DNA of 62,690 nt from a virus. The DNA lies in the IMG/VR virus record IMGVR_UViG_3300048915_000098, positions 1 to 62,690 of that record; one strand, written 5' to 3'. The translations under genes and the position numbers were made by a program. Under the pieces are notes generated by a model. That model made no database searches and was not told the DNA's origin. It worked only from the letters and a program-made list of their open reading frames with translations. Positions within the stretch are counted from its first letter, which is position 1. Every line of letters begins with the position of its first letter. Positions 20,319 through 47,264 of this stretch are shown here, one piece after another.

Positions 20319-21403
20319 ACGCAGCACGTCGCTCCCGCCGCAAGCAGGACTGGCCGCGAGGCCTGTACGAGCCGCGGCCCGGCTACTTCGTCTGGAGGCA
20401 CCCGAAGACCGGCGAGACCATGGCCATCGGCCGCACGACCGTTGCCGACGCGCGCAACCAGGCGTTGGCAGCGAACCAGCACGTTCTGGACACTGCGCCG
20501 ACGCTGATCGAGCGGATGGAGGGCAGGGAGCACACGGTCGCGGATGTGCTGGACGTGATGCCCGAAGCCGAGAACGCCAACACGGCGAAGTCGCAGCGCT
20601 CGCTGGACAAGCGCATCCGTGCAAAGCTGGGCGGCAAGCACTGCGGCCGGCTGTCGGTCAGGGACTGCGCCGACATGCTCGATGAGATTGTCGAGGACGG
20701 CCACGCGCGCACGGCTCAGGCGGTTCGTTCACGGCTAATCGTGGTGTGCAAGAAGGCGCTGGCCAAAGGCTGGATGGAGAGCAACCCGGCCGAGGTGACG
20801 GAGGAGATCGAGGTCGAGGTCAAGCGCGGCCGGTTGACGCTCGAGATGTTCCATGCGGTCTACGAGAACGCACCCGAGGTGTGCGAATGGCTGCAGGCGG
20901 CCATGCGCCTGGCGCTCGTCACGGGCCAGGACCGGTCCACCATCTGCGACATGGAGCGATCACACGTCGCCGATGGCTTCCTGACCGTCTGGCGCACGAA
21001 GACCCGCGAGACCAATCAGCCCGTCGATATTCCCCTCGCGCTGCGCCTGGACGCGGTGGGCTGGTCGCTCGCCGACCTGGTCAAGCCGCGAACCGGCGTG
21101 CTGTCGAAGTACCTCGTCCACCACGTCCAGCCTTGGGGCAACGCGCCGGCGGGCTCGCCGATCCACGTCAACGCCTTGTCGCGCAGCTTCACCGAGGCCC
21201 GCATCCTGGCCAAGATCCCGGACGTCGGGCCAGACGGCAAGGGCGCGCCGACGTTCCATGAGATCCGGTCGCTGTCGAAGCGCCTCTACGCCGCCCAGGG
21301 CGGTGTCGACACCAAGGCCCTGCTCGGCCACAAGACCGACAAGGCGGCAGACCTGTATGCCGACCCGCGAGGCGTCGAACACATCCGTGTGCGCATCGCC
21401 TGA
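20315..21403 (+). CDS. int: Tyrosine integrase (lambda Int family)
   Basis: 362 aa, GTG start. The C-terminus has HEIRSLSKRLY...LLGHKTDKAADLY (the R..H-x-x-R..Y catalytic pattern). Confidence 0.9.
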   Translation: MNAARRSRRKQDWPRGLYEPRPGYFVWRHPKTGETMAIGRTTVADARNQALAANQHVLDTAPTLIERMEGREHTVADVLDVMPEAENANTAKSQRSLDKRIRAKLGGKHCGRLSVRDCADMLDEIVEDGHARTAQAVRSRLIVVCKKALAKGWMESNPAEVTEEIEVEVKRGRLTLEMFHAVYENAPEVCEWLQAAMRLALVTGQDRSTICDMERSHVADGFLTVWRTKTRETNQPVDIPLALRLDAVGWSLADLVKPRTGVLSKYLVHHVQPWGNAPAGSPIHVNALSRSFTEARILAKIPDVGPDGKGAPTFHEIRSLSKRLYAAQGGVDTKALLGHKTDKAADLYADPRGVEHIRVRIA

Positions 21404-21653
21404 CTTATCAAATGAACGGCAAGTAAACAGGAAATGAACTCACCGGGCGCGGTGTCTGTTGCCGAGGCAGACCATCAAAACACGAACTTTGTTCATATAC
21501 ATCAACGGCTTAGGTCTCTTTTTCGGCCCCTTATTCATGCGCAGAAAGACATCAAATAGGTTGATATGAATCAACCATTTATCAAACGCATTTGAACAGG
21601 GCTAACCCCATTTCAACCACCCGCTCGGGCATGCTCAAGCGTACAGTCGCGCG
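21404..21653. other. attP region (AT-rich, repeat-dense)
   Basis: The only strongly AT-rich 250 bp, directly 3' of int. It has about six ATGAA(C/T) copies in both orientations, a GGTTGAT-ATGA-ATCAACC inverted repeat (21559..21576) and TTATCAAA(T/C)G repeats. Confidence 0.6.
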
Positions 21654-22022
21654 ATGGCATTGAAGCGATCGCACGTCATCGCCGGCACCGTCCTGGCGCT
21701 GCTGGCTTTGGCGTCGCTGGTTCGTGGAGGGGAGACGGGGGCGCGGCCGGAGGCTGCGCAACCCCCGCTTGAACGGTCGGTGGCAGCCGCCGCGGCGCGC
21801 GCGCGGGCTGATCTCCCGATCAATCCGCGCATCCTGAAGGTCGGCGCCAACCAGGTGCAGGTCATCGACATCCCGTCGATGGTCAGCCCGAAGTCTGCTC
21901 TGGTGGAGACGCGCCGCTGCTACGTGTGGCGCGACCTCGAATTCCGTACGGCGTCGGTCACCTGCCCGGAAGATGGTGAGATGCTGCCAGCGGCCGGGCC
22001 TCCGCCCAGCGGCGAGCGCTAG
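21654..22022 (+). CDS. Secreted/membrane-anchored small protein next to attP (122 aa)
   Basis: N-terminal signal/anchor VIAGTVLALLALASLVRG; good codon bias. Converges on the giant gene with overlapping stops. Confidence 0.6.
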   Translation: MALKRSHVIAGTVLALLALASLVRGGETGARPEAAQPPLERSVAAAAARARADLPINPRILKVGANQVQVIDIPSMVSPKSALVETRRCYVWRDLEFRTASVTCPEDGEMLPAAGPPPSGER

Positions 22023-31515: not shown

Positions 31516-32693
31516 GCCAGCGCCGCCAGTTCGCGCTTCATCGCCGCCACCTGCTTGGCGAGCTGTGCGATCGCCTTGCCGTTGACCTCGGACATCGCGC
31601 CCATGTCGATCGCCTTGCCGCGGGGCGCAACCGCATCACCGAACGCTGCATGCACGTCCTCGGCGTAGGGGCCGACGTGGTCGCCGGAATCCTCGACGCC
31701 CTTGTGATACTTCCAGCCGTCTACCGGCATCTTGCCGTTGGTCAGGCCCTCGAGCGCCTTCGGGCCGCTGACCCGGAGCGTGCTGGGCTTGGCCTTGACC
31801 GTCTGCTTGGCGGCCGGCGCGCCGCCGGCGACGAGGCCCTCCAACGCCGCCTTGCCGTCGACGCGCGAGATCTTGGTCTTGGCGGTCTTCGTGGACGTCG
31901 CAGTGCCGCCGTGCATCCCGTACGCCATCGCCCCTGCGCCGATCAGGTCACCGAAGAAGCCCTGATTGGCGGAGGCGGCGCCCTGCTGGAGTTGGTTGAA
32001 TCCAATGAGCCCGTTGACACCGGCACCGAAGGCTGGGGTCGAAGTTGTCAACGGTGCGGCCGTAAGACCCGATGCACCGCTCACGCTTCCTTGCGCGGCT
32101 TGGCCTGAACTTTGCGCCGCGCCAGCCGCCTGGAGGCTGGCCGTCGGCAGGCCGCGGCCGATGTTGACGGCGCTTCCCTGCAGGTTGAGGCCCGTGTTCT
32201 CGACATTCGTGCGCGCGGCATTCGCGGCCCCGGCCTTGGCCGTGGCCTCCTGCAGGTTGAGCGCGTTGTTCAATGCGAGGGCCTTGCCGCTGCCGGCCTG
32301 GACGCCGCCCGCCTGGAGCTGGTCCGCCTGCTGCGCGCGCGCCGTGTCGAACGCGGTGCCGACTTGGCCCTCCGCGGTCTGGGCGGCCTGCTCCTTGCGG
32401 CCGTCGGTGGCGTAGTCGGCCGCCTCGGTGGCGTACTGGCCTTCGAGCGGCTGGAAGTATTTGCGATAGTTCGCGTACTGGTCGGCCGCCTGCTGCGTTT
32501 CCTGCTGCTGCGCCGCGGTGTTGGAGGCGACCTGCTGCTGGAACAGCGGCATGTATTGATCGAGCAGCGCTTTCTGGTCCTGATATTCCTGCTTGCTCAG
32601 GGCGATCTGGTTCAGCGATGCTTGACCAATTTGTGGGTCTGGGGTCGGTGTTTTGACTTTGATGATGCTCTCCTTAGAGGGTGCAACCCTCAT
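31512..32693 (-). CDS. Internal-virion-like Gln-rich protein with an S74-chaperone-like C-terminus (393 aa)
   Basis: Trimmed from the 452-aa ORF. ATG 32693 lacks an obvious RBS, and a strong AAGGAG at 32671..32676 suggests the true start may be a few codons downstream. Confidence 0.65.
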   Translation of the reverse strand: MRVAPSKESIIKVKTPTPDPQIGQASLNQIALSKQEYQDQKALLDQYMPLFQQQVASNTAAQQQETQQAADQYANYRKYFQPLEGQYATEAADYATDGRKEQAAQTAEGQVGTAFDTARAQQADQLQAGGVQAGSGKALALNNALNLQEATAKAGAANAARTNVENTGLNLQGSAVNIGRGLPTASLQAAGAAQSSGQAAQGSVSGASGLTAAPLTTSTPAFGAGVNGLIGFNQLQQGAASANQGFFGDLIGAGAMAYGMHGGTATSTKTAKTKISRVDGKAALEGLVAGGAPAAKQTVKAKPSTLRVSGPKALEGLTNGKMPVDGWKYHKGVEDSGDHVGPYAEDVHAAFGDAVAPRGKAIDMGAMSEVNGKAIAQLAKQVAAMKRELAALA

Positions 32694-33525
32694 GAAGACG
32701 GCGCTTCGCCGCAACGTAGGTTCGATGAGCCTCTTCGGCGGTGTCAAAGGTACCGAGGTTGATTGCCTTACCCCGAACCTTGATGGCTGATTTGAAGCGG
32801 CCACCGTGTGCGTGCGCACCCAGCAACCCGGTGCTGTTGTTTGCCTGGGCGCGCCGCCTGTTCTCCGCATTCACCCGCCGGCTCACGTCACGCAGGTTCG
32901 CCCATCGATTGTTCGATCGGTCAGTGTCCCGGTGGTCGACATCAGCCTTTGGCCACTCGCCTGTGACGATGACCCAGATCAGCCTGTGCGCAGCGTAGGT
33001 CTTCCCGTCGATTTCGACCATGACATAGCCGTGGCTCTTGACGCTTCCGGCGAGTTGCCCTACTTCGACATTGCTGTATTTGGTGGGCTTGCCGGCCCAA
33101 CGCAAAAGACCCGTGCCCGCCTCATACGTGAACAACGCTCGCAGCATTGCTTGCGCAGCGGCCCCATCGCGAGGAATCCTGATCTTCGTTCGGGTATCGC
33201 CATAGGCTTTGAACCTGGCTGCGAGATGGTCTGCCTTCGGGCGATCCTTCAAGTTGACCCAGCGGTTGTCCGCGTGCGTGTCGTTTTCGTGAGTGACCTG
33301 GAACTGCGGCCATCGGCCCGTCATGTACAGCCAAGCCAAGCGATGCACCGCATGCGACTTTCCGTCCACGCACGCATACCTGTAGCCGTCCGTTTCATTG
33401 ACTCGGCCGATCTCATCGCCAACCTTTGTGCGATTCGATAGCGAAATGCGTCGAGTCATCACGCCCGTCTCCGGGTCGTAGTGAACCAGCTCGCGCAGGC
33501 GCTCGGCGCTCAGTTCTTGAGCCAT
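32674..33525 (-). CDS. HNH_3 x2 + AP2 homing endonuclease
   Basis: Two ~110-aa tandem modules ending THENDTHADNRWVNL and VDHRDTDRSNNRWANLRD. C-terminal AP2-like GRFKSAIKVRGKAINLGTFDTAEEAHRTY. Start taken at ATG 33525. Confidence 0.8.
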   Translation of the reverse strand: MAQELSAERLRELVHYDPETGVMTRRISLSNRTKVGDEIGRVNETDGYRYACVDGKSHAVHRLAWLYMTGRWPQFQVTHENDTHADNRWVNLKDRPKADHLAARFKAYGDTRTKIRIPRDGAAAQAMLRALFTYEAGTGLLRWAGKPTKYSNVEVGQLAGSVKSHGYVMVEIDGKTYAAHRLIWVIVTGEWPKADVDHRDTDRSNNRWANLRDVSRRVNAENRRRAQANNSTGLLGAHAHGGRFKSAIKVRGKAINLGTFDTAEEAHRTYVAAKRRLHEGCTL

Positions 33526-33929
33526 CTGCACTCTTCCTTCAACATCCGGTACATCCACCCCGGCTCGTCACCGAACCAGGCCTCAAGGGGAGCCTCGAAT
33601 AGAAAGCCCATCTTCACGAGCGCGCGCTGGGCATCGGTGTTTGACTCGCGCGTTACCGCGGTCAGGCGCTTGCAGCGCCACTCGACGAATGCGATGTGAA
33701 ACACGTTGCGCAGGAACGTGCGCCCGCCCATTGCGTGGGCGCGATCGAACCACACCGAGAATTCGGCTTTGGTGCCAACGGAGATGTCGGAGAACACCGC
33801 TTGCCCGTGAATCCCCTCGGCGCTTGCTGCCGTCAACACCTTGTCGCCTTCCTCGTGGCGGAAATGCCCGCCTAGCTTCTCGCTGGCGTGAAGGAATAGA
33901 GCCGGAGATTGATCGTTCCAGACATACAT
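33510..33929 (-). CDS. GNAT-family N-acetyltransferase-like protein (139 aa)
   Basis: RLTAVTRESNTDAQRALVKMGFLFEA matches the GNAT C-terminal motif pattern (V...N..A..L..K.GF). Confidence 0.55.
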   Translation of the reverse strand: MYVWNDQSPALFLHASEKLGGHFRHEEGDKVLTAASAEGIHGQAVFSDISVGTKAEFSVWFDRAHAMGGRTFLRNVFHIAFVEWRCKRLTAVTRESNTDAQRALVKMGFLFEAPLEAWFGDEPGWMYRMLKEECRWLKN

Positions 33930-33978: not shown

Positions 33979-34611
33979 TCAGGGCCAGGTGATCGCCCGG
34001 ACGGCGTCCGTCGTGGTGGCCGCGCGCACGGCCGCCTTCAGGTCCTGCAACTGCGCGAAGGCGGCGAAGCCATGATTGGCAAGCGCCGCGGCCAGACCCT
34101 GCAGGTCGGCGTAGGTGAACGGCGTCACCCGCGTGTTGTCCTTGGACTGCCAGAAGTAGCCCTCGGGCACCGCCTGCGCTGCCTGGAAGCCCAGGAGGCA
34201 GGATGACAAGTCGCTGACCGATTGCGGGTCGGCCTGATACATGCGGGTGTCCCCGGCGGCCGTCGTGAACGAGACATCCGCGGCGATCGCGCGAGCGTAG
34301 GCGGCGTCGAGCAGCGCGCACTGGCGGATCTGCACGGCGGCCAAGGATTGCGACTCGTCGCTGACGACCGCGGCGCCGTCGAATGGCGCGATGCTGGCGA
34401 GAGCCGAGTCGAGGTCGGAGAGCGCGCTTGGCGTGGCCGCAATCGGCCACATCCAGGCCAGATTACCGCCAGCGTTGTGTGCGTCCTCATCGACCCAGCT
34501 CGCGACGTTCACAGCGACGGTGCCGCCGACGGGGTCATAGTTGACCTGCATGGCCTTGTGAAATCCGACCGAAGCGCCATTCGGCGCGGTGATGTCTTTG
34601 AGGAGGGGCAT
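33979..34611 (-). CDS. DUF4376-like tail-fibre-associated protein (210 aa)
   Basis: Trimmed from the spurious 449-aa ORF to ATG 34611. YFWQSKDNTRVTPFTYADLQGLAAA...LKAAVRAATTTDAVRAITWP is a DUF4376-like pattern. Confidence 0.6.
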   Translation of the reverse strand: MPLLKDITAPNGASVGFHKAMQVNYDPVGGTVAVNVASWVDEDAHNAGGNLAWMWPIAATPSALSDLDSALASIAPFDGAAVVSDESQSLAAVQIRQCALLDAAYARAIAADVSFTTAAGDTRMYQADPQSVSDLSSCLLGFQAAQAVPEGYFWQSKDNTRVTPFTYADLQGLAAALANHGFAAFAQLQDLKAAVRAATTTDAVRAITWP

Positions 34612-38591: not shown

Positions 38592-39269
38592 TCAGCTCCG
38601 GCGGCAGTACCAGGCCGGCGCGGCGTCCTGCATCTGGACGCGCAGCCCCTTGCGACGGACCGGGCCCGCGCGCGAGCCGGCCAGCATCACGGCGGCGTCG
38701 AACTTGGTCTTGTGAAACGCGGCCAGGCCCGGGTTCGACCAGGGCTTTCCCTCCTGCGCGCACAAGATCTCGATGGCGCCCGACGCGATCTCGCGGCGCC
38801 AACGGTTGAAGATGAAGTCCGGCACGCCGGTGGCTGCGTCCGATGGCGCGAACGACAGCGTGCCGGTGATGGCGATGCCGCCCGTGTCCGGCGCCGGCGT
38901 TGCGCGCAGTGCGGCGGGGCCGTCGATACCGATGACGCAGCGCGGCCAGCCGCAGTCGACCCGGCCTTGCGTGCCCGGGGCGTAGTCGTCGCTTTCCCCC
39001 GGCTCCTCGACATCGACTTCCCGGCCGTTGGCCCAAGCCGAATGCACGCCCACAAGCTGCGCATCGGCCGGGATCAACGCCGTGATGTCGTAGGACTCCT
39101 GCCCCGCCACCGTGGTGAACAGGGCGAGCTCGCGCACGCGCCACATGAACGAGCGCCGGCAGAAGTCCTGCGCCGCGTTGCGGATCTGGTTGATGCGCTC
39201 GAACTCCGGACAGGCCGTCGTCGACAGGTTCACGTCCGGCAGGAACAGCGAGTAGTCGATCGTGCTCAC
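38592..39269 (-). CDS. Virion structural protein (225 aa)
   Basis: Trimmed from the 341-aa ORF to GTG 39269 (GTGA overlap, GAGGG RBS). Begins VSTIDYSLFLPDVNLSTTACPEFERI. Confidence 0.6.
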   Translation of the reverse strand: MSTIDYSLFLPDVNLSTTACPEFERINQIRNAAQDFCRRSFMWRVRELALFTTVAGQESYDITALIPADAQLVGVHSAWANGREVDVEEPGESDDYAPGTQGRVDCGWPRCVIGIDGPAALRATPAPDTGGIAITGTLSFAPSDAATGVPDFIFNRWRREIASGAIEILCAQEGKPWSNPGLAAFHKTKFDAAVMLAGSRAGPVRRKGLRVQMQDAAPAWYCRRS

Positions 39270-39949
39270 GTCGCCGCCCTCTGGCTGCCGGCGGCGTCCG
39301 CCATCTGCACGTTCTGGCCGCGCACGCCCAGCGACTGCAGGAACAATTGCCAGTAGGCGCTGGCCAGTTGCGGGCTCTTGGCGTAGGTCGCGTCCTTCGA
39401 GTACATGCTGAACAGCGCGAAGAACTGCAGCGCGTTCGCGTAGGTGTCGGGGATCGTGATGATGTCGGTCAGGGCCGTGAGCGGCGCCGGTTCCGCGGCG
39501 TAGACGATCTCGAGCTTCGCGCCGGACTGCAGAGGCGGATAGATGAAGAAGGCCAGCGGGTCGCGGTCGTCCGACATCCAGTGCACCGCGTCGAGCGCGG
39601 CTGCGGTGGAGTGCCACAGGGGGATCTGCTCGTCGAACTCGACCCGATCGCGCTTGGTCATCGCCCGGCCCGGCGTGGTGCCGTCAGCGCGGAAGTTGCG
39701 CGTGATGTCGACGAGTTCGACCCCGTCCACGATCGACAGGCCAGTGAAGTCCTGGCGGGTGCCGGCCACGGCCGTTGCCTTGACCGCCTTCGTGTAGGCG
39801 CGCGGCGACTGGTTGACGATCTCGCGCTGGCCGTCGTTGATCCAGCGCAGCATCTCGGCCGACGTCCAGCGCACCGCAGTGCCGTCCGTCTGCTCGTTGA
39901 CCTTCGTCCACGCGCCTTGCGCGATCTGCGTCCCGGTGATGGTTGGCAT
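39266..39949 (-). CDS. Putative head-tail adaptor-like structural protein (227 aa)
   Basis: ORF-track ORF with a TGGAG RBS. The adaptor call rests on position and size only. Confidence 0.5.
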   Translation of the reverse strand: MPTITGTQIAQGAWTKVNEQTDGTAVRWTSAEMLRWINDGQREIVNQSPRAYTKAVKATAVAGTRQDFTGLSIVDGVELVDITRNFRADGTTPGRAMTKRDRVEFDEQIPLWHSTAAALDAVHWMSDDRDPLAFFIYPPLQSGAKLEIVYAAEPAPLTALTDIITIPDTYANALQFFALFSMYSKDATYAKSPQLASAYWQLFLQSLGVRGQNVQMADAAGSQRAAT

Positions 39950-39962
39950 TCGGGCTCCAATG

Positions 39963-39986
39963 AAAAAAGCCCGCGACGTGCGGGCT
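39963..39986 (-). terminator. Hairpin plus T6 (minus strand) between the accessory cassette and the adaptor-like gene
   Basis: Minus strand: AGCCCGC-ACGTC-GCGGGCT followed by TTTTTT, only 14 nt upstream of ATG 39949. Confidence 0.5.
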
Positions 39987-40090
39987 TCAAGTTAGGGGTA
40001 CTGCTGCTTTTGGGCGCGCTGCATGCTCCGTCCCCACCCGACTCGCGCGCGCGGGGCGCTCGGTGTCGACCATGTACAGGGAGGAGATTT

Positions 40091-40702
40091 ATGAAACGCG
40101 AATTCAAGGCCGGCTTGGCTGCGCTGGCGATCATCGGCAGTGCTGCGCACGCGTCAGCTACCGCAGACGTTTCATTTGGGGACGGGATTGGGATATCGGC
40201 CGGCCCGATCGCCGGCGGCACCTATGTGACCGACGGATGGACGTCGCCTACGCTCGGCTACCAGGAGACATACACATTCACCATCACCTACACGATCAAT
40301 CTGGCAGCGGATGGCTTGGCCGTGACGCGCGACTGGATGTTTTGCACGCCTTCGTTCCCTGACTATTGCGGCCGCGCGCCGACAGGGCGGGAGTCGGCTG
40401 AGGTCTACCTCATGTGGGGTGGCATGGACTCGCGCGGAAATCCGGGCGTCGACAACCTCTCGTTCACCTACACGCCAGATCAGGACTTCTATCTGAGCAG
40501 CGGCTCGCATACCTACGCGGGCGTGATGACCTTGAGCGTCACCAACAACGACTACTTTCCGACCGCCTTCTCGCCGGTGCTGCTGGCGGGTGTCTTTGTG
40601 GACTCGAGCGCTGCCTCGCCTGCACCAGAGCCTGCGCCTTCCGGCCTGCTATTGGCCGGCGGAGCGCTTTTGTTCGCGGTTAGACGAAGCGGACGCGCCT
40701 GA
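40091..40702 (+). CDS. PEP-CTERM-anchored secreted protein (203 aa)
   Basis: Trimmed from the 451-aa ORF to ATG 40091 with a GGAGGAG RBS. Signal peptide: MKREFKAGLAALAIIGSAAHASA. C-terminus: SPAPEPAPSGLLLAGGALLFAVRRSGRA, i.e. PEP motif, TM helix and Arg cluster. Confidence 0.75.
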   Translation: MKREFKAGLAALAIIGSAAHASATADVSFGDGIGISAGPIAGGTYVTDGWTSPTLGYQETYTFTITYTINLAADGLAVTRDWMFCTPSFPDYCGRAPTGRESAEVYLMWGGMDSRGNPGVDNLSFTYTPDQDFYLSSGSHTYAGVMTLSVTNNDYFPTAFSPVLLAGVFVDSSAASPAPEPAPSGLLLAGGALLFAVRRSGRA

Positions 40703-43166
40703 TGCCAGTGTTGGTGCCCTGCCCTGCTCGGATAATCAGACGAATAACGTAAGGCCCGATCTTTGGCGGCGTCCAGGCAAGTGCCTCGGACGGTCCGACG
40801 GTTGACGTGCCGACGGCGCCATTGCCACCAGCCGGGACGTGCACCGTACCAATCTGCACTGCACCACTTTGGTCTGGAGGGTAATACCAGACTTCAACTG
40901 CGGTGGCTGCGACGTCAGTGCCATCAACAAAAATCTGGCGCGCAGTCAGTGTGTTGTTGCAATAGACCCAATCGACATTCCGATCCTTGGCGTTGCTGCC
41001 GGTCCCCCAATAGAGGACACCTGTCGTCGCCTGAATGAACGTCGTGCTGGTCATCTCCTTGGCGTTTTGGTAGTACGCCACATCCAGCGTGCAGAGGTCG
41101 TGTCCGTTGATATTTGAGTAGAAGACGTCGTCGTTGAACTTGTTGTAGCCGGCCTTCTTGGCGCTGTAGTTGCTGTCAGTGGAGGTGACGCTGTCGCTCC
41201 AGTAGGTGCACGATTGCCACTGATCATTGCCGCTGTTGCCGTTCTTGGTGACGCGCGGCGACGAGTGGAAATTCATGCACCGCTGCACGCCGTTTTGCAG
41301 CACCGTGCGGACATGGGCATCAACGTAGGCCTCCATCCGCGGGTCGACGGCGGCTTGCACCGCATACGAGGACCAGCTCGTGTACTGCAGCGCCGGACCG
41401 CCCTCGTAACTGATTGGGCGCAGGCCGTTCCGCAAAGCGAGATAGACGGCGCCGCGAGCGCCGTTATCGATCGTTGCCGCAGTGCCGGCTCCAGTCGAAT
41501 CGTTCAGCAACGCATAGAGGCTCGTCGTCTTCGTCGCGTCGTACAGGTCGTCATACGCAGCCAACGTGCCCGAATTGGCGTTGTAGAAAGCCGGCGCAAA
41601 GCCGTCCAGCCATGCGCCCGTGCCATCCAGCCACTTGTAGTAGGTGATCTCGAACGGACTGGCGTCCTGACCGCCCTGTACCCCCGCCGGCATCTGGACG
41701 TTCAGGTAGCAGCGATCCTTGTACGTGGCTTTCGGGCGAACGGTTTGCCACGATTGCATGCCGAGATAGGTGTTGCGGACCGTCCACTTGACCTTGACGC
41801 TGGCGAGCGCAAACGAAAGGTTGTCGGCCAGCAGCGGAGAGCCGACGTTGAAATACATTTGTGTGCTGCCAGGAGCAGTCGACGCAGTCGTCGTGCTGAT
41901 GCCAGTGTTGTAGGTGAACGTGTTCCCGCTCACGCTGGTCACCGTCACCTGCCTGGTCGTGTTGGCGATCTGGCCGAGTGCGTTGAAGGACACCGTGGTC
42001 GCGCTCACGATGAGTGGCGCGTTAAGGACGATGTAGGGCTGATTCGTCGCGTAGTCCAGGTACGTCGAGCAGTTGGACGCCAGCGTCACGGTCACATTGC
42101 CGGCCGTATCCAGACTCATGCTCGTGATTTGAATCGCCGCGGTAGGGCCTTGATAGAGCGCGCTGGGCTGGCTCGAGTTGTAGTTGGAGTTGAGCAAGTA
42201 GTTCGCCAGCGCCTGCGTGCTGTTGACCACGGCCCACAGATAGGCATTGAAGCGAATCGGGATGAATGAATTCCACGGCTCGTTGCCGTACTCCATCTCC
42301 AGCTCGTCGATGCCGATGCCCTTTGAATTGGCAAGTGTCGCGAGTTGGGCCCAGTAGTCCGCGTCGCAGAACGGTGGCACGTTGACCATCAGCTTGGATG
42401 TCCGCGAACCGGGATACGCTTTGGCAGCCAAGTAGAAGTCGAAACCTCGCTCCCAACTGCCGATGTCCGCGGCCACCTGTGGCCCTGTGTAGTTGGGCGG
42501 CCGCGTCGACCACGTCGTGTCAGTGCGACCACCGCCGTTCCAGAAGTCAAGCAGGCGCATGACGTTGTTCTTGGAGACTTCGGCCAGCGCCTCGGCACGG
42601 AACAACGGGCCGCCGACGGTAGTAGCCTGCCCATCGAACGGCGTGTCCACGAATGTCACGGCGCCGTTGACGCCAAGGTTCACCGTCGCGCCAGGCGCCA
42701 CGGTGAAGGTAAACGGCTGCACCGTGGTCGCGCCGCCGTTGGTCGTATAGCTTGCGCCGAGCGTGAAGCCCGTGATCCCGGAGCTTGCCGGCGAGGGGGT
42801 CGAGAACGAGGGCAGCGTGGCGCCCTGCGAGGTGTTGTACCAGATGGCCCAGGTGTACGTGCCCGCTGGCACGACACTGTCGTACGAGGTGCCAGCGCCG
42901 TTAGAGATGGCAATGCTGATGCGGACAAAGAACGCCTCGGTCGGCCAGCCCGTGACCGGGTCACGATTGCAATTGACGCCAGGGCTCCCCATCCTTTCAA
43001 GCCGTGCTCCGTTGTAGAGCGCTTGGGAATAGAGGCGGTTCGTCAGGATCGAGTTCGCACCGCTGAAGTTGGCGCCCATGCCGCCGATGTCGCGGAATTT
43101 GGCCTTCCAGGTGCCAGCCGTGGCCCGCACAAAGGCATTCATCTGGAATCGGCTGATGGCGCTCAT
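40680..43166 (-). CDS. Glycoside-hydrolase-like (clan GH-A type) putative polysaccharide depolymerase (828 aa)
   Basis: ELEMEYGNEPWN contains the NEP acid/base signature of TIM-barrel GH-A enzymes. Asn/Thr/Ser/Tyr-rich; GC visibly lower than the flanks. Confidence 0.55.
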   Translation of the reverse strand: MSAISRFQMNAFVRATAGTWKAKFRDIGGMGANFSGANSILTNRLYSQALYNGARLERMGSPGVNCNRDPVTGWPTEAFFVRISIAISNGAGTSYDSVVPAGTYTWAIWYNTSQGATLPSFSTPSPASSGITGFTLGASYTTNGGATTVQPFTFTVAPGATVNLGVNGAVTFVDTPFDGQATTVGGPLFRAEALAEVSKNNVMRLLDFWNGGGRTDTTWSTRPPNYTGPQVAADIGSWERGFDFYLAAKAYPGSRTSKLMVNVPPFCDADYWAQLATLANSKGIGIDELEMEYGNEPWNSFIPIRFNAYLWAVVNSTQALANYLLNSNYNSSQPSALYQGPTAAIQITSMSLDTAGNVTVTLASNCSTYLDYATNQPYIVLNAPLIVSATTVSFNALGQIANTTRQVTVTSVSGNTFTYNTGISTTTASTAPGSTQMYFNVGSPLLADNLSFALASVKVKWTVRNTYLGMQSWQTVRPKATYKDRCYLNVQMPAGVQGGQDASPFEITYYKWLDGTGAWLDGFAPAFYNANSGTLAAYDDLYDATKTTSLYALLNDSTGAGTAATIDNGARGAVYLALRNGLRPISYEGGPALQYTSWSSYAVQAAVDPRMEAYVDAHVRTVLQNGVQRCMNFHSSPRVTKNGNSGNDQWQSCTYWSDSVTSTDSNYSAKKAGYNKFNDDVFYSNINGHDLCTLDVAYYQNAKEMTSTTFIQATTGVLYWGTGSNAKDRNVDWVYCNNTLTARQIFVDGTDVAATAVEVWYYPPDQSGAVQIGTVHVPAGGNGAVGTSTVGPSEALAWTPPKIGPYVIRLIIRAGQGTNTGIRRVRFV

Positions 43167-43169
43167 GGC

Positions 43170-45044
43170 TTACGGCAGCTTGTTGATGCCAACGCAGCGA
43201 ACGCCGACGTTTGCGGTCTTGGTGAAGTCGCTGCTCGCGGCCGCCGAGACACCGTTGACGGTGCCCATCTTGACCTGGATCTGCGGCACGACAGTGCTGA
43301 TGGTGCCGTTGCTCATTTGCAGGCGTCCCGTGGAGATCTTCATATTCCCGGATGGCGAAGCCACTGGGAATGGGCCCGAGTCAAGCGTTTCGCCGTTCGT
43401 GACAAAGCCGTATCGGCCGCTGGCGTTTGTCGTCATCTGCGCAAGGATGTACTGAATCCCCGCGGCGACCGCGTTTTCCCAATACAGTTCGAACACGAAC
43501 TCGTATTCGGCTTCGTCCGTTGGTGAACCGATGCCTGCTGCCGCCAGGTTGGCAAAGCCAGAGGTGCCAGCCGGGTCGAAGACCAAGACCTCGTTGCTGC
43601 CGCCGCCGGCGCACTCAGCGTTGATCCACACACCGAGACCATCGGGATCGGCCCACTGCGAGCACTTCATGGTCGCCGTTGCGGATGCCCCTTGCCCGCA
43701 GACCCAGCCAGACGGAATGCCGGCGACTGGCGAAGTGCCCTTCGGAAGCCGCGTGCTGTTCGATCCGCCGCCGAGGTATGTGCCGCTGGTCGAGCTGGTG
43801 TTCCACGGGCCCTTGAGCCAGACGTGCGTGCGACCGCCGGGCGTGCCGGAGTCGGTCGAACTGCGCGGAACTACCACCGGGAACGTGATCCCAGCAGCAG
43901 TCATTGTCGCGGCGAGAGGAACGCCCTGCTTGGCTGCAGACGACGTCGTGAAGTGCGTGCCGTCGCTGGTGTCGTAGTTGCCGTCGGGGTCGAGGTGACC
44001 GCTGTTGTCGTACATCACCTGAGAGGCGAAGCTGTACGTCGGCGTGGATACGTCCGAGAAGAGGATGCGTCCGGGGCTAGCCTGTTGAAGTTCGTACAAC
44101 TGCCGGTTGTACGTCTTCCTAGGCGTGGGGTTGTACAGCGTGTACGTGCTGGAATCGACGTTGAGCGTGTTCGGCGCGCCAGAAGTTGCGCACTTGCCGA
44201 TGACTTGCTCGTTGAAACTTCCGACGACGCCGGTGTATGGCGTACCTAGGGCTGCGGCGCTGCCAACGAACGAGCAAGATTCGAGCACGACATATGCGTT
44301 GCCACCACTGCCGTCCGCGCCCGTCAGGCCATCGAGCAACTTCTTCATCGAAGTAGCTGTCGCAGTTGGATCACCGCCAGGCTTCAGATCGTTGATGCCC
44401 ATGCGGACGATGCACAGCACCTGACGGCCGAGGCCGTTGTAGTAGGTGGTCAGTTGCTTGGCGTAGGCGAGCTCAGCCGCCGATTCGGCCGAGAGATTGC
44501 CGGAGCCGTCACCGATCAGTGCGCCAGGGTGGCCCAGGTTGGCCACGATGTCCATGCCGCCACCCAGGATCGCGTTGGCGTGGTTCACTGGCCCGCGCCA
44601 GGAGCGGCGCTCCATGTTGATGATGTCGCCGTTGCCGAGAACCTGCGTGACGCCCGATGCGGCGGTTGTCGCATTCCAACTTGGCGCACCCTTCGCGTAG
44701 GTGTCGCTGGCGTTCGTGTGGATGCTGAGGCCCGTCGTCGTCGAGTCCTCGTAGTTGTTTCGGCCAATGACCTCGAGAGACTTGTCCGAGACATTGACGA
44801 TAGATGCGCGCGGCGTCCCGGCCATCGCCGTGGAGCCTAGCGTCGTCGTGATGGCTGCCGTAATGCGGCCCGGATGCGTCGTACCGTCGCGAGCGAGGGT
44901 GGCCGCGCCAATCGCCACCATCTGGTTTTCCTTACCCGTGATCGAGTCACCGATCAGGATGACCGCCGGATTCGACAGCGCCGGGAAGGTGGCGGCCCCG
45001 AACTTCTTGACAGCCCGGGCGCGCGCGTGGAGTGCTGGCCGCAT
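43170..45044 (-). CDS. SGNH/GDSL-family esterase with a C-terminal beta-rich domain (624 aa)
   Basis: Block I VILIGDSITG, block III MGINDL, block V SDGTHFT. Confidence 0.7.
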   Translation of the reverse strand: MRPALHARARAVKKFGAATFPALSNPAVILIGDSITGKENQMVAIGAATLARDGTTHPGRITAAITTTLGSTAMAGTPRASIVNVSDKSLEVIGRNNYEDSTTTGLSIHTNASDTYAKGAPSWNATTAASGVTQVLGNGDIINMERRSWRGPVNHANAILGGGMDIVANLGHPGALIGDGSGNLSAESAAELAYAKQLTTYYNGLGRQVLCIVRMGINDLKPGGDPTATATSMKKLLDGLTGADGSGGNAYVVLESCSFVGSAAALGTPYTGVVGSFNEQVIGKCATSGAPNTLNVDSSTYTLYNPTPRKTYNRQLYELQQASPGRILFSDVSTPTYSFASQVMYDNSGHLDPDGNYDTSDGTHFTTSSAAKQGVPLAATMTAAGITFPVVVPRSSTDSGTPGGRTHVWLKGPWNTSSTSGTYLGGGSNSTRLPKGTSPVAGIPSGWVCGQGASATATMKCSQWADPDGLGVWINAECAGGGSNEVLVFDPAGTSGFANLAAAGIGSPTDEAEYEFVFELYWENAVAAGIQYILAQMTTNASGRYGFVTNGETLDSGPFPVASPSGNMKISTGRLQMSNGTISTVVPQIQVKMGTVNGVSAAASSDFTKTANVGVRCVGINKLP

Positions 45045-45048
45045 CGCT

Positions 45049-46371
45049 TCAGCCCACCAGAGCGCGCCAGGTGTCCGCGCCCACCTTCTGCAAGAACGCG
45101 GTTTCGTACTGCGCGCTGATGGCCAGCGACCGCGCCGAGGGCTTGACGATCGTCACGCCCGAACCGGCCGCAATGGTCGTCGTCCCGGCGCCGCCCTGGG
45201 ACACGCTGATGACCGTGTAGAGCGGGAAGGCGACGGACGAATTGGGCGGGATCGTCAACGTGTTCGCGGCTGCGTTCGCCATGTCCACGCTGTTGCCGGC
45301 ATCGCTGAGCGCCAGCGTGTAGGTGGTGCCGGTCTGGAAGTTGATCGGCTGCTGCAGGAGAGCCGGAGCGGTCGCCGTCAGAACCGTGGTGTTCGTGCCG
45401 GCCGCGCGCGTCACGTCGCCAGTGAGTGCGCCCGATTGCGCTGCCGGGACGTAGCCGCTGCCATCGAGCGAGGCCACGCCGTTTGCGGCGCCGACCTGCA
45501 CGGAGGTGATGTTCTTCTGCCAGGCGGTGCCATCGCTCTTGTAGAGGACGCCCGCCACCAGCGCATCGCAGTCGACGTTGCTGGCTGCCGGATAGGCGGT
45601 CTGGAGCGCAGAGGTCGAGGCGTAGGAACCGAGGTAGCCGCCGCCAAGGCGCACACAGGTGAAGGTTGTCCCGTTCCACACTGCCTCGTCGCCAGTCTGA
45701 TAGGTCTGGCCGTCCAGCACCTTGCCGCCCGCCCCGGTGTAGAGGAAAGCGTTCGATCCGAACAGTGGGAGCGGATTGGTGCCTGACGTGAGGTTGGGCG
45801 TCGTTCCGTCCCAGTTGATGGGGATGTTCTGCTTGGCCGCCAGGGCGCTCACGCCATCGGTCAGGTCGGTGGTGGCCAGCTTGCCCGTCATCTGGGCGGT
45901 CGGAACCTTGGTGTCGGAGCCGAGCGTCGCGACACCGTTGGCGGCGCCCTTCTGCGTCGAGGGGATCGCTGCATTGGCTGTGGTTTGCGCCGATCCCGCG
46001 GTGCTGAGCGCATTCGAGGCGTTGTTGTTCGCCGTGGTGATCGAGGCTTGCATGCCAGTGATGTCGATCGCCACGTACGCGGTTCCCGCCGCGTTGATGT
46101 ACCGGAGGATGTTGTCCGCCCCGACGAACAGCGCGCCGGCACCCAGCGCGATGTCGGCACTCGTGGGGGTGCCGGCCAGTTGAGGCGAGGTACGGACGTT
46201 CAGGCGCTTGTAGGATGCGGTGAGCGCAGTCCACGAACTGGACCCGTCGCCGATGCGCAGGTGCCCGGTGTCCGTCTCGAGGCCGACTTCGCCGAGGGCG
46301 AGCACCGGATTGACCGTCGTCCAGTTCGCGGAGGTGTCGCGGCGGACTTGAATTTGGGTGAGGAGACTCAT
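45049..46371 (-). CDS. Tail fibre protein with an Mtd-N/HylP-type N-terminal domain (440 aa)
   Basis: IQVRRDTSANWTTVNPVLALGEVGLETDTGHLRIGDGSSSW is the widespread fibre N-terminal signature. Confidence 0.75.
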   Translation of the reverse strand: MSLLTQIQVRRDTSANWTTVNPVLALGEVGLETDTGHLRIGDGSSSWTALTASYKRLNVRTSPQLAGTPTSADIALGAGALFVGADNILRYINAAGTAYVAIDITGMQASITTANNNASNALSTAGSAQTTANAAIPSTQKGAANGVATLGSDTKVPTAQMTGKLATTDLTDGVSALAAKQNIPINWDGTTPNLTSGTNPLPLFGSNAFLYTGAGGKVLDGQTYQTGDEAVWNGTTFTCVRLGGGYLGSYASTSALQTAYPAASNVDCDALVAGVLYKSDGTAWQKNITSVQVGAANGVASLDGSGYVPAAQSGALTGDVTRAAGTNTTVLTATAPALLQQPINFQTGTTYTLALSDAGNSVDMANAAANTLTIPPNSSVAFPLYTVISVSQGGAGTTTIAAGSGVTIVKPSARSLAISAQYETAFLQKVGADTWRALVG

Positions 46372-46380
46372 GGACTTCCC

Positions 46381-46908
46381 TCAGGCGGTGCCGCCGTCGA
46401 TGGGTGGAAGGGTGTAGGTGCTGTTCGAGCTGCCGCCGCTCAGGGACTCGCCCAGATACGTCGACGAGGCGGTGCCGCCGTCGTAGGCGAGGACCGCCCC
46501 GGCCCCGTCGATGGGGCCGCCGACCGCCGCGTACGACAGGCCGATCGCGATGCAATTGATGCTGGTGCCGGCGTCGGCCGAGGTGACCGAGTACGAAGCG
46601 CCCGTCGCCCCGCTGATCGGGACGCCGTTGCGCGTCCACTGGAAGCTGGTCGCAGCCCAGCCGGCCGCGAGCTGCGCGACCAGGGTGCCGCCCACCACGA
46701 AGTTGCCGGTGACCGAGACAGGGGCAATGCCGCCCGCCACATAGGCGAGCGAGGCCTGGCCCGGGCCGTTGATGAGCACCGACTTGCCGAGCCCGCGCGC
46801 GATGTCCTTCTGCAGGGACGTGGTCGTGCCGGCCTTGACGGTGAGCACGTCGAAGACCACGTCCTCCAGGAACGTGACGCTCAGGTACTGGATCGGCGAG
46901 ACGGGCAT
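46381..46908 (-). CDS. Ig-like-domain protein (possible decoration/fibre accessory, 175 aa)
   Basis: FQWTRNGVPISGATGASYSVTSADAGTSINCIA is a bacterial Ig-like repeat signature. Confidence 0.55.
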   Translation of the reverse strand: MPVSPIQYLSVTFLEDVVFDVLTVKAGTTTSLQKDIARGLGKSVLINGPGQASLAYVAGGIAPVSVTGNFVVGGTLVAQLAAGWAATSFQWTRNGVPISGATGASYSVTSADAGTSINCIAIGLSYAAVGGPIDGAGAVLAYDGGTASSTYLGESLSGGSSNSTYTLPPIDGGTA

Positions 46909-46919
46909 CTCTTCTCCGA

Positions 46920-47264
46920 TCAGGCCGCGGCTTGGCCGGCTTCAGCGTCGGCGATCGCCTTGAGCAGGCGGGGCTCGCCCCAGGTGCCCTTGACGTCGAT
47001 GCCGAGCTCCTTGGCGCGCACGCGCAGCGCGTCGAGCTTGGCGACCTTCTGCGCGGCGGAGCCGGCGGGCTCGTCCTCGCTGTTGCCTTGTTCGCTGACC
47101 GGCTCGTTCGCCTCTTCCCACACGGTGGGAAACGAGAGCAGCTTGGAGGCGGCAACGGGGTCGGCGACCTCGTGCACGTCGCCATTGCCCATCCAGACGA
47201 TCCCGGTGGCGGCGACGTTGTCTTGCTTCACCGGCTTGATGCCGATGTATCGGATCTGCGTCAT
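46920..47264 (-). CDS. Hypothetical head-module protein with a Rho-N/HeH-like C-terminus (114 aa)
   Basis: Start moved to ATG 47264 (GGAG RBS); the track start at 47276 is a TTG. C-terminus: KLDALRVRAKELGIDVKGTWGEPRLLKAI. Confidence 0.55.
   Translation of the reverse strand: MTQIRYIGIKPVKQDNVAATGIVWMGNGDVHEVADPVAASKLLSFPTVWEEANEPVSEQGNSEDEPAGSAAQKVAKLDALRVRAKELGIDVKGTWGEPRLLKAIADAEAGQAAA

What the first reader, a model, noticed from the sequence alone, without database searches (positions are those of the whole stretch)
40091..40702. Plus-strand PEP-CTERM secreted protein embedded in the minus-strand tail module
This is the only plus-strand gene in about 35 kb of late genes. It has its own strong RBS (GGAGGAG) and a cleavable-looking signal peptide. 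Its textbook PEP-CTERM tail (PAPEPAPSGLLLAGGALLFAVRRSGRA) comprises the PEP motif, a TM helix and a basic cluster. PEP-CTERM proteins are sorted by exosortases in EPS-producing Gram-negative bacteria, so a phage-borne cargo would depend on a host exosortase. Its opposite orientation is typical of a moron expressed from the prophage. That raises surface remodelling, superinfection exclusion or biofilm effects as possible roles. Its 3' end overlaps the 3' end of the glycosidase-like gene by 23 nt, and a hairpin (39963..39986) lies upstream.
Basis: partly seen in the sequence, partly recalled or inferred. Interest (0 to 1): 0.65.

Follow-up and report, generated by a model that had tools for sequence, protein, structure and literature searches.

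The report
Phage-carried PEP-CTERM protein in enzyme cassette
A temperate phage carries a real, backwards-facing gene for a secreted protein with a host-type "PEP-CTERM" sorting tail, and in several unrelated phages this kind of gene sits tail-to-tail with a sugar-cutting-type enzyme gene, suggesting that phages use the host's slime-layer sorting machinery.

Summary
ORF 40091-40702 (+) is a real 203-aa gene with an SD site, a signal peptide, a beta-sandwich core and a PEP / TM helix / RR tail. It is the only plus-strand gene in 40.7 kb of minus-strand late genes. It overlaps the 828-aa gene by 23 nt.

The tail scores just below the curated cut-off (TIGR02595 14.9 vs 16 bits). An exhaustive search nevertheless found 33 full-length homologues, most with canonical [VI]PEP tails, so this is an undescribed PEP-CTERM family.

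New finding: it is not a lone moron. It closes a ~7-kb cassette of Ig-like protein, tail fibre, SGNH esterase and NEP/YEGG glycosidase-like enzyme. The closest prophage backbone (a Rubrivivax MAG) lacks this cassette.

An enzyme gene convergent with, and overlapping, a PEP-CTERM gene recurs in at least three other phage lineages. In one lineage the PEP-CTERM protein has a different core. Cellular homologues stand alone.

The phage is temperate and encodes no exosortase. Its likely hosts are Burkholiales-type bacteria (order Burkholderiales) that have exosortase-linked exopolysaccharide (EPS) loci.

The likely role, inferred and not shown, is an exosortase-sorted lysogenic-conversion protein expressed counter to the EPS-degrading late genes. 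The "upstream hairpin" is a minus-strand terminator.

The parts
40080..40086 (+). Shine-Dalgarno GGAGGAG, 4 nt upstream of the ATG
   Evidence: sequence
40091..40702 (+). PEP-CTERM protein gene (203 aa): signal peptide, beta-sandwich core with a conserved Cys pair, and a PEP / TM / basic tail
   Evidence: coding; 33 homologues; AF2 pLDDT 83.7
40091..40153 (+). Sec-type signal peptide (residues 1-21, AHA|S cleavage site predicted by rule)
   Evidence: Read from the sequence; conserved A-x-A in alignment A1
40625..40633 (+). PEP motif (P179-E180-P181); E180 is nearly invariant in the family
40640..40696 (+). Tail transmembrane helix (residues 184-197) and basic cluster RRSGR (198-202). The basic cluster is encoded antisense to the conserved ...RRVRFV C-terminus of the 828-aa protein
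40680..40702 (.). 23-nt convergent 3'-3' overlap of the two coding sequences
   Evidence: Equivalent overlaps of 4-29 nt occur in L005, L011, L016, L017, L018
39960..39988 (-). Intrinsic terminator of the minus strand (9-bp GC-rich stem, U6), between the start of the PEP gene and the adaptor gene. It marks the distal end of the cassette
   Evidence: an equivalent site in L016
40012..40027 (+). Weak sigma-54-like -24/-12 match (GGGCGCG-N4-ATGCT), ending 63 nt before the ATG. A lead only
   Evidence: 9/12 match; about 0.05 expected by chance in the 141-nt spacer; no upstream TTTACA enhancer motif (one search gives the expected pattern)
40680..43166 (-). 828-aa enzyme-like protein with invariant GNEPWN (E296) and SYEGG (E588) motifs. 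Candidate retaining glycosidase / EPS depolymerase and the conserved partner of the PEP-CTERM gene
   Evidence: no Pfam, PHROG or PDB hit
43170..45044 (-). 624-aa SGNH-type esterase (invariant GDS, GxND and DGTH blocks) with a C-terminal beta domain
45049..46371 (-). 440-aa tail fibre (Mtd_N N-terminal domain)
46381..46908 (-). 175-aa Ig/Hoc-like protein, the first gene of the cassette
39950..46919 (.). ~6.97-kb accessory cassette. It is inserted between g114 (46920-47264) and the adaptor gene (39266-39949), which are contiguous in the closest relative, L023
   Evidence: lower GC and GC3

Best explanation
Shown: the ORF is a genuine protein-coding gene of an undescribed PEP-CTERM family. The family has about 200 aa: a signal peptide, a disulfide-containing beta-sandwich and a PEP / TM / Arg tail. 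Other members are single-gene units in bacterial chromosomes.

Shown: in this temperate podovirus-like phage the gene is the last, reverse-oriented gene of a ~7-kb mobile cassette for host-surface interaction. The cassette holds an Ig-like protein, a tail fibre, an SGNH esterase and an NEP/YEGG glycosidase-like enzyme. It is inserted between a head-proximal gene and the adaptor gene.

Inferred mechanism:
1. The gene is transcribed on its own, against the late operon, most plausibly in lysogens.
2. The product is exported by Sec and held in the inner membrane by its C-terminal helix.
3. The host's exosortase cleaves it at PEP, and it is passed to the cell surface or exopolysaccharide matrix.
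4. There it changes the same exosortase-linked EPS layer that the cassette's esterase and glycosidase-like enzymes attack during infection or release. That would mean receptor masking / superinfection exclusion, or matrix and floc conversion.

The enzyme mRNA must read antisense through the whole PEP gene to reach its terminator. Late transcription and PEP expression should therefore be mutually exclusive.
For: Real gene: correct-phase GC3 and positive codon LLR. There are 33 full-length homologues at 28-47% identity. They share the signal peptide, DGLPAxRxW..C.P....CGP.PTG.E, FVD and [VI]PEP..LLLAGL..RRR.

PEP-CTERM identity: 18 of 34 members hit TIGR02595 at E<=0.1. P0006 (phage) scores 20.9 and P0005 21.6, against a cut-off of 16.

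Structure: the AF2 model has pLDDT 83.7 and shows a beta-sandwich plus a terminal helix.

Cellular homologues stand alone among housekeeping genes.

The cassette is an insertion: in L023 the g114 homologue's stop and the adaptor's ATG are 4 nt apart. A1 and A4 family members are absent from 16 related prophage loci.

Recurrent pairing of the enzyme gene with a convergent, overlapping PEP-CTERM gene:
- L005: enzyme 49.5% and PEP protein 47% identical to the window's, next to TerS/TerL.
- L018/L019.
- L016: enzyme 28% identical, next to an endolysin.
- L011: siphovirus tail genes; its 602-aa protein is 46% identical to the window's SGNH protein.
- L017/L039/L042: the PEP-CTERM protein has a different core; TIGR02595 16.2.

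The TerL of these other phages is unrelated to the window's.

Lifestyle and host: the phage is temperate and has no exosortase-like protein. The nearest capsids are in Rubrivivax, Rhodoferax, Piscinibacter and Hydrogenophaga prophages. Rubrivivax, Rhodoferax, Aquincola and Leptothrix have exosortase/PEP-CTERM EPS clusters (PMC3684757; PMC9850573).

Terminator: the minus-strand terminator lies beyond the PEP gene.
Against: - This copy scores below both curated thresholds (TIGR02595 14.9 vs 16; PF07589 9.4 vs 20.7). It has APEP in place of [VI]PEP.
- No promoter was identified. The sigma-54-like site is weak and is not conserved in the other phage loci.
- The host is only inferred from capsid relatives at 56-62% identity.
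- The enzymatic nature of the 828-aa protein rests on two motifs only. There is no HMM or PDB hit, and the AF2 model is poor, with pLDDT 44.8.
- Two homologues of the enzyme (L020, L021) have no PEP-CTERM neighbour.
- The PEP core can be swapped, which argues against a strict enzyme-inhibitor pairing.
- There is no expression, processing or phenotype evidence.
Confidence: 0.65

Rival explanations
1. The tail is only a C-terminal membrane anchor and is not an exosortase substrate. The protein stays in the inner membrane facing the periplasm and acts there, for example as a Sie-type block to DNA entry or a periplasmic binder, independently of any exosortase.
For: This copy is below the TIGR02595 and Pfam cut-offs and has APEP followed by a second Pro. 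The phage copies P0002 and L018 have a variant PEPxxWA-like tail that also scores below its cut-off (22.7 vs 35). The tails therefore drift in phages.
Against: E180 of PEP is nearly invariant across the family, and the whole tripartite tail is conserved in position. Other phage copies pass TIGR02595 (20.9 and 16.2). When the core is replaced in L017/L039, the PEP-CTERM tail is kept. That points to selection on the sorting signal itself.
Confidence: 0.15
2. It works in the lytic cycle together with the cassette enzymes, for example as a matrix-binding helper or chaperone for the esterase/glycosidase at release or adsorption. It would not be a prophage-expressed conversion gene.
For: There is tight, recurrent linkage and 3' overlap with the enzyme gene in several phages. 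No lysogeny-type promoter was found.
Against: It lies on the opposite strand to every late gene, and it lies inside the 3' untranslated stretch of the enzyme transcript, before the terminator. Co-expression with the late genes would therefore be opposed by convergent transcription. It needs Sec export and inner-membrane processing, whereas the enzymes have no signal peptide. Cellular homologues function without the enzymes.
Confidence: 0.12
3. It is a hitch-hiking host gene with no function for the phage, kept only because its 3' end overlaps the enzyme gene or because it arrived recently.
For: Atypical codon usage: 0.15 LLR per codon against 0.3-0.6 for neighbouring genes. GC3 is lower. Two homologues of the enzyme lack it.
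Against: The ORFs are intact, with signal peptide, Cys pair and tail all conserved at only 28-47% identity, in at least four phage contexts. Only 23 nt overlap, so the other 590 nt are free to decay and have not. A non-homologous PEP-CTERM protein occupies the same slot in another lineage.
Confidence: 0.06
4. It is not a gene at all, but a chance ORF or GC3 shadow in high-GC DNA.
For: The window is 66% GC and has many long spurious ORFs.
Against: There are 33 homologues, 13 of them at E <= 1e-10, and a confident fold prediction. No minus-strand ORF spans the region in the GC3-rich phase.
Confidence: 0.01

Closest known systems
Cellular PEP-CTERM proteins sorted by exosortase (XrtA/EpsH), e.g. 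the flocculation protein PepA of Zoogloea and Aquincola (Haft 2006, PMC1569441; PMC9850573)
   Same: N-terminal signal peptide; a C-terminal PEP motif, TM helix and Arg cluster; a single-gene unit with its own upstream spacer; little similarity to known domains; association with EPS biology.
   Different: It is encoded by a phage, inside a late-gene cassette. Its core domain matches no named NCBIfam PEP-CTERM subfamily above cut-off. This copy's tail is slightly sub-threshold. No PrsR/sigma-54 control region is recognisable.
Morons / lysogenic-conversion genes in late operons, such as lambda bor and lom (my own knowledge of the Hendrix/Juhala concept)
   Same: An extra gene absent from the closest relative; deviant composition; opposite orientation to the late genes in a temperate phage; an envelope-targeted product.
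   Different: It has no terminator of its own on its strand, and no promoter was identified. It is not an independent insertion: it is a fixed part of a larger cassette that moves between phages together with an enzyme gene. Its sorting signal needs a host system found only in some Gram-negative bacteria.
Receptor-blocking proteins encoded next to receptor-binding genes, such as T5 Llp beside pb5 and Cor of phi80/N15/HK022 beside the tail-fibre genes (my own knowledge)
   Same: A small exported envelope protein whose gene is linked to the host-recognition genes and travels with them. This is the functional model I favour.
   Different: Those proteins are lipoproteins that block the outer-membrane protein FhuA. 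This protein has no lipobox, the presumed target is a polysaccharide layer, and sorting would be by exosortase. No exclusion phenotype has been tested. It is not a member of those families.
O-antigen / EPS-modifying conversion modules linked to tailspike specificity, such as P22 gtrABC and Sf6 oac (my own knowledge)
   Same: A temperate phage alters the same surface glycan that its own enzymatic tail proteins recognise.
   Different: Those are glycosyl- or acetyl-transferases. This is a non-enzymatic-looking beta-sandwich that would be added to the matrix.
Excludon-type convergent gene pairs, in which a long antisense UTR covers a neighbour of opposing function (my own knowledge)
   Same: The enzyme transcript must run antisense across the whole PEP gene before reaching its terminator.
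   Different: No transcript data exist. The terminator arrangement is clear only in the window and L016, and weaker in L011.

Membership tests
PEP-CTERM sorting domain (TIGR02595 / PF07589; Haft 2006) | Pro-Glu-Pro motif at the extreme C-terminus | tested here: met
   P179-E180-P181, 22 residues from the end. E180 is nearly invariant in alignment A1.
PEP-CTERM sorting domain (TIGR02595 / PF07589; Haft 2006) | A predicted transmembrane helix directly after PEP, followed by a cluster of basic residues | tested here: met
   SGLLLAGGALLFAV then RRSGR; AF2 helix at 183-201.
PEP-CTERM sorting domain (TIGR02595 / PF07589; Haft 2006) | N-terminal signal peptide | tested here: met
   n-h-c pattern with AHA|S, read from the sequence; conserved across 33 homologues. 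No dedicated predictor was available.
PEP-CTERM sorting domain (TIGR02595 / PF07589; Haft 2006) | HMM score at or above the curated cut-off | tested here: not met
   TIGR02595 14.9 vs 16; PF07589 9.4 vs 20.7. Homologues in the same alignment columns do pass: P0006 20.9, P0005 21.6, the L017 protein 16.2. 18 of 34 hit at E<=0.1.
PEP-CTERM sorting domain (TIGR02595 / PF07589; Haft 2006) | Occurs only where an exosortase (EpsH/XrtA) and EPS genes are present | not testable with these tools
   The host genome is unknown. The phage has no multi-pass membrane protein. The nearest prophage relatives are in Rubrivivax, Rhodoferax, Piscinibacter and Hydrogenophaga. Rubrivivax and Rhodoferax carry exosortase/PEP-CTERM EPS clusters (PMC3684757).
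PEP-CTERM sorting domain (TIGR02595 / PF07589; Haft 2006) | In Proteobacteria, an upstream PrsR enhancer motif (ending in TTTACA) plus a sigma-54 -24/-12 site | tested here: inconclusive
   One 9/12 -24/-12 match at 40012-40027, with about 0.05 expected by chance. No TTTACA motif; not conserved in the other phage loci. Haft found the site in only 99 of 167 genes.
Named NCBIfam PEP-CTERM subfamilies (NF038126 FxDxF, NF038129, floc_PepA and others) | Whole-protein score above the subfamily cut-off | tested here: not met
   Best scores are NF038126 at 21.3 vs 50 and NF038129 at 13.1 vs 65. No listed member of the family reaches a subfamily cut-off; most of these matches cover only the C-terminal third of the protein and the tail. 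It is therefore an unnamed family.
Moron (extra transcription unit in a late operon) | Absent from closely related phage genomes at the same position | tested here: met
   In L023, g114 and the adaptor are contiguous. However, the whole 7-kb cassette is the inserted unit, not the gene alone.
Moron (extra transcription unit in a late operon) | Own promoter and own terminator flanking the gene | tested here: not met
   No sigma-70-like promoter and no convincing plus-strand terminator downstream. The only strong hairpin is a minus-strand terminator upstream.
Moron (extra transcription unit in a late operon) | Nucleotide composition different from the neighbours | tested here: met
   GC3 is 0.75 against 0.91-0.93 in the adaptor and nozzle genes. 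Region 40-45 kb is 0.60-0.63 GC against about 0.66-0.70 elsewhere. Codon LLR per codon is lowest here.
Clan GH-A retaining glycosidase (partner 828-aa protein) | A (beta/alpha)8 barrel with an acid/base Glu in an N-E-P motif and a nucleophile Glu | tested here: inconclusive
   N295-E296 (GNEPWN) and Y587-E588-G589 are invariant in 6-7 homologues and are also alignable in L011_770. There is no Pfam or PDB sequence hit, and the AF2 model is too poor to search (pLDDT 44.8).
SGNH/GDSL hydrolase (partner 624-aa protein) | Block I GDS, block III GxND, block V DxxH | tested here: met
   G32-D33-S34, G216-x-N218-D219 and D361-G-T-H364 are invariant in three homologues. Pfam PF13472 scores only 18.5 against 32.9.
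Lipoprotein receptor blockers (T5 Llp, Cor) | Lipobox signal peptide; homology to Llp or Cor | tested here: not met
   No L-x-x-C lipobox. No PHROG, PADLOC or structural match. The analogy is functional only.

The most novel reading that the evidence does not exclude
The cassette is a two-state 'attack or protect' module aimed at the exosortase-linked exopolysaccharide. During lytic growth the esterase and the glycosidase-like enzyme strip or penetrate that polymer, while their transcript silences the antisense PEP-CTERM gene. In lysogens the PEP-CTERM protein is installed into the same polymer by the host exosortase and shields it from phages carrying the cognate enzymes. This would be a new, sorting-system-dependent class of superinfection exclusion. 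It would also give the first functional handle on what PEP-CTERM proteins are attached to.
Probability: 0.2. Interest if true: 0.8.

Novelty: new variant of a known kind. Interest (0 to 1): 0.6.

Why it matters
PEP-CTERM/exosortase sorting is widespread in soil, sediment and sludge bacteria, but it is poorly understood. The acceptor of the cleaved proteins, and the role of most substrates, are unknown.

I found no paper describing PEP-CTERM cargo of tailed phages. The only virus-like mention was a Dehalococcoides mobile element.

Here a phage cassette repeatedly couples an exosortase-type substrate to polysaccharide-active enzymes. That gives a concrete, testable link between the substrate, the EPS layer and phage adsorption. 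It suggests that temperate phages can remodel flocs or biofilms of Burkholderiales-type hosts through a host sorting pathway. It also defines an unnamed PEP-CTERM family and an unnamed enzyme family for annotation.

Tried and rejected
Searches for relatives that found little or nothing:
- Megablast of 36-48 kb against cultured phages: no match.
- tblastn of the 828-aa protein against phages: none.
- Word-indexed protein search with the PEP protein: only itself. The exhaustive phmmer search was needed.
- The search for related loci with A1: the alignment was too divergent.
- The search for related loci with A2 in GTDB genomes and IMG/VR: none confirmed.
- A4 in JGI metagenomes: none. A7: one more L039-type locus.
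- Look-up of the window's own protein for the sample name: not on record.

Structure and family searches:
- PDB sequence searches with the 828-aa protein, A1 and A4: chance hits only.
- Foldseek of the PEP model against PDB and BFVD: nothing at E<=0.001, TM <=0.3.
- AF2 of the 828-aa protein with 6 sequences: pLDDT 44.8, so it was not used.
- Pfam on all A4 members: nothing.
- PADLOC: nothing.

Regulatory signals:
- Rfam: only Bp2_287 at 19 vs 70 bits, which is chance.
- Sigma-70 promoter scan: none.
- Sigma-54/PrsR control: one weak -24/-12 match, no enhancer motif, not conserved. Kept only as a lead.

Ideas rejected:
- Spurious ORF: rejected.
- Strict enzyme-inhibitor co-evolution: weakened, because L039's enzyme pairs with a non-homologous PEP-CTERM core and L020 and L021 have none.
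Full report
THE OBSERVATION

The ORF runs from ATG 40091 to TGA 40700-40702 and encodes 203 aa. GGAGGAG lies at 40080-40086. The window is 66% GC and full of spurious ORFs, so I tested coding potential in two ways.

- GC3 is 0.75 in the phase of this ORF, and no minus-strand ORF spans the region in that phase.
- A codon-usage log-likelihood model trained on 13 confident genes selects this ORF (LLR +29.9). It makes this the only plus-strand gene between 22,019 and 62,690.

The 3' overlap with the 828-aa gene is 23 nt (40680-40702). The RRSGR codons of the tail are the antisense of the enzyme's conserved C-terminal ...RRVRFV codons.

The hairpin is real: 39966-39988, -17.8 kcal/mol, z = -2.98. 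Its U-run is on the minus strand, so it is an intrinsic terminator for minus-strand transcription.

IS IT A PEP-CTERM PROTEIN?

The tail has the three defining parts set out by Haft 2006 (PMC1569441):
- PEP at residues 179-181;
- a hydrophobic helix (AF2 helix 183-201);
- a basic cluster.

The protein also starts with a Sec-type signal peptide (AHA|S).

By HMM this copy is just under threshold: TIGR02595 14.9 vs 16 bits and PF07589 9.4 vs 20.7.

The word-indexed protein search found nothing except the query itself. An exhaustive phmmer search of 1.84 billion representatives found 33 homologues, 13 of them at E<=1e-10. All but a few fragments or frameshifted entries are about 200-230 aa and full length.

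The alignment shows:
- a conserved signal peptide;
- a core with DGLPAxRxW..C.P....CGP.PTG.E, including two conserved Cys;
- SGT.T.T.T and FVD;
- then [VI]PEP..L.LAGL..RRR, with the Glu of PEP nearly invariant.

Of the 34 family members, 18 hit TIGR02595 at E<=0.1. Several pass the cut-off: P0006 at 20.9, P0005 at 21.6.

No named NCBIfam PEP-CTERM subfamily is reached, and there is no Pfam domain for the core. AF2 predicts a confident beta-sandwich (pLDDT 83.7) with no significant neighbour in PDB or BFVD.

Conclusion: this is a genuine member of an undescribed PEP-CTERM family, with a slightly degenerate tail (APEP).

THE PHAGE

The window is a whole 62,690-bp contig. It encodes:
- a CI/S24 repressor (8859-9983, minus strand), RecT, an exonuclease, NinB, NinG, a NinI-like phosphatase, a DNA methyltransferase and a tyrosine integrase at 20315-21403;
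- on the minus strand, terminase, portal, an F116/933W-type capsid (PF13252), two SU10-type adaptors, an internal virion protein family member, tail proteins, and a 2432-aa polyvalent protein.

It is therefore a temperate podovirus-like phage. It has no protein with more than three hydrophobic segments, so no exosortase of its own.

The closest cultured capsid is Achromobacter phage CF418P1 at 44.6% identity. Closer capsids (56-62%) sit in prophages of Rubrivivax, Rhodoferax, Piscinibacter sakaiensis, Hydrogenophaga and unnamed Burkholderiales MAGs.

Rubrivivax gelatinosus and Rhodoferax carry EPS clusters with exosortase and PEP-CTERM regulators (PMC3684757). Aquincola, Rubrivivax and Leptothrix share floc-forming PEP-CTERM systems (PMC9850573). 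An exosortase-positive host is therefore plausible but not shown.

THE CASSETTE

In the closest backbone relative, L023 (a Rubrivivax MAG; portal 59%, capsid 62%, nozzle 56%), the g114 homologue stops 4 nt before the adaptor's ATG.

In the window, 6.97 kb lies between those two genes (46919 to 39950) and contains:
- g175 (Ig/Hoc-like);
- a 440-aa Mtd_N tail fibre;
- a 624-aa protein with invariant SGNH blocks GDS / GxND / DGTH;
- the 828-aa protein with invariant GNEPWN and SYEGG;
- the reverse-oriented PEP-CTERM gene;
- the minus-strand terminator.

This stretch has lower GC (0.60-0.63) and lower GC3 (0.75-0.79 against about 0.9) than the flanking structural genes. None of the 16 related prophage loci contains a member of either family.

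RECURRENCE ELSEWHERE

Looking up where homologues are encoded gave two classes.

Cellular, stand-alone copies sit among housekeeping genes:
- P0035 (L001-L004);
- P0005 (L006-L007);
- P0039 (L008-L010, 157 nt after a tRNA-Pro gene);
- P0007 (L014-L015).

Phage copies are always convergent with, and overlapping, a large enzyme-like gene:
- L005: PEP protein 47% identical; enzyme 49.5% identical; 14-nt overlap; next to TerS/TerL.
- L018/L019: a 200-aa family member with profile E = 6e-58; an 825-aa enzyme; next to PhageMetallopep and DUF2280.
- L016: a 956-aa enzyme, 28% identical, E = 1e-43; 29-nt overlap; an endolysin fragment downstream.
- L011-L013: siphovirus tail tube, chaperone and tape-measure genes; a 602-aa protein 46% identical to the window's SGNH protein; and a 770-aa protein that aligns colinearly but weakly with the enzyme family, including ADEVWN and YYEGG.

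Searching from the enzyme side found five more homologues.
- P0055 (L017, the 73.9-kb IMG/VR contig L039, and L042) has a 600-aa SGNH homologue upstream. Downstream it has a convergent 23-nt-overlapping gene whose product shares only the signal peptide and the PEP-CTERM tail with the family (TIGR02595 16.2). Its core is different.
- P0056 (L020) and the distant P0058 (L021) have no PEP-CTERM neighbour.

The TerL of the L005/L039 lineage is unrelated to the window's (25% over a fragment). The pair therefore occurs on at least three backbones: the window's podovirus-like phage, the L005/L018/L039 lineage, and the L011 siphovirus. L016 is an additional locus. Tail-fibre-like genes precede the enzymes in the window, L011 and L018.

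In a rough neighbour-joining tree, the window, L005, L018 and L011 copies cluster together with the tRNA-adjacent L008 copy. L016 falls elsewhere.

MECHANISM

Shown:
- a secreted-type protein with a PEP-CTERM-type tail;
- the cargo position and opposite orientation;
- a temperate phage;
- linkage to polysaccharide-type enzymes;
- a terminator for the enzyme transcript that lies beyond the whole PEP gene in the window and in L016, with a weaker hairpin in L011.

Inferred:
1. Independent transcription, most plausibly in lysogens.
2. Sec export, followed by disulfide formation in the periplasm.
3. Cleavage by the host exosortase and delivery to the EPS or outer surface.
4. Alteration of the polymer that the cassette enzymes act on.
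5. Late transcription reading antisense through the gene, so that the two states exclude each other.

The PEP-CTERM tail is kept when the core is exchanged (the L039 type). This argues that selection acts on exosortase sorting at this slot, not on one specific protein-protein pairing.

I rate the identity and the cassette architecture as well supported. I rate the conversion or exclusion role as an inference, at about 0.3 on its own.

WHAT REMAINS WEAK

- No promoter was found. One sigma-54-like -24/-12 match at 40012-40027 ends 63 nt before the ATG, which is within the range Haft reports. However, about 0.05 such matches are expected by chance, there is no TTTACA enhancer motif, and it is not shared by the other phage loci.
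- The glycosidase assignment of the 828-aa protein rests on motifs only.
- The host is inferred.
- All comparison loci are metagenomic contigs.

NOVELTY

Searches of the paper library for PEP-CTERM with prophage, or with bacteriophage and exosortase, returned no description of phage-encoded PEP-CTERM cargo. One 2026 preprint notes a PEP-CTERM domain in a Dehalococcoides virus-like mobile element.

The protein is a new family member of a known kind of sorting substrate. The recurrent enzyme/PEP-CTERM cassette in phages is a new variant of lysogenic-conversion or receptor-linked cargo.

Noticed in passing
window 22019-29317 (-): A 2432-aa 'polyvalent' protein with inorganic pyrophosphatase (PF18823), ART-PolyVal ADP-ribosyltransferase (PF18760) and phosphoribosyltransferase domains, at the end of the late operon. 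It is probably an ejected effector protein.
   Followed up: no
L017 2867-3697 (-); L039 12483-13313 (-); L042 488-1282 (-): In another phage lineage, the slot convergent to the 828-aa-type enzyme holds a ~265-aa PEP-CTERM protein. It has a different core (TLSDFRITLVDLDPGDG...) but the same kind of signal peptide and tail, and also a 23-nt overlap.
   Followed up: partly
window 40012-40027 (+): A sigma-54-like -24/-12 match (GGGCGCG-N4-ATGCT) ending 63 nt upstream of the PEP-CTERM start. PEP-CTERM genes of Proteobacteria are often RpoN/PrsR-dependent, but this match is weak and not conserved.
   Followed up: partly
window 32674-33531 (-), 3332-4000 (-), 16879-17487 (+): Three HNH endonuclease genes. 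One of them, with two HNH_3 stretches, sits inside the structural late operon.
   Followed up: no
L008 3543-3619 (+) and 3777-4400 (+): The 'cellular' homologue that clusters with the phage copies lies 157 nt downstream of a tRNA-Pro(TGG) gene, a typical integration hot spot. It may be a remnant of a mobile element.
   Followed up: partly
L001 7449-8087 (+) and 8072-9520 (-): A chromosomal family member also overlaps (16 nt) a convergent gene, here for an HTH_3 + Peptidase_M78 (ImmA/IrrE-like) protein. Convergent 3' overlap may be a general habit of this family.
   Followed up: no
window 20315-22022: The integrase gene lies mid-contig and abuts the end of the minus-strand late operon. The contig is therefore the excised or circularly permuted phage form, and attP probably lies at about 21.4-22.0 kb.
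   Followed up: no
window 40000-45000: GC content drops to 0.60-0.63 and GC3 to 0.75-0.79 across the PEP-CTERM, 828-aa and 624-aa genes, against 0.66-0.74 GC and about 0.9 GC3 in neighbouring structural genes. This is consistent with recent acquisition of the cassette.
   Followed up: yes
window 33979-34611 (-); L021 2742-3353 (+): A DUF4376 protein (a domain seen in phage tail-fibre regions) occurs in the window's tail region, and also near the distant 860-aa enzyme homologue in L021.
   Followed up: no
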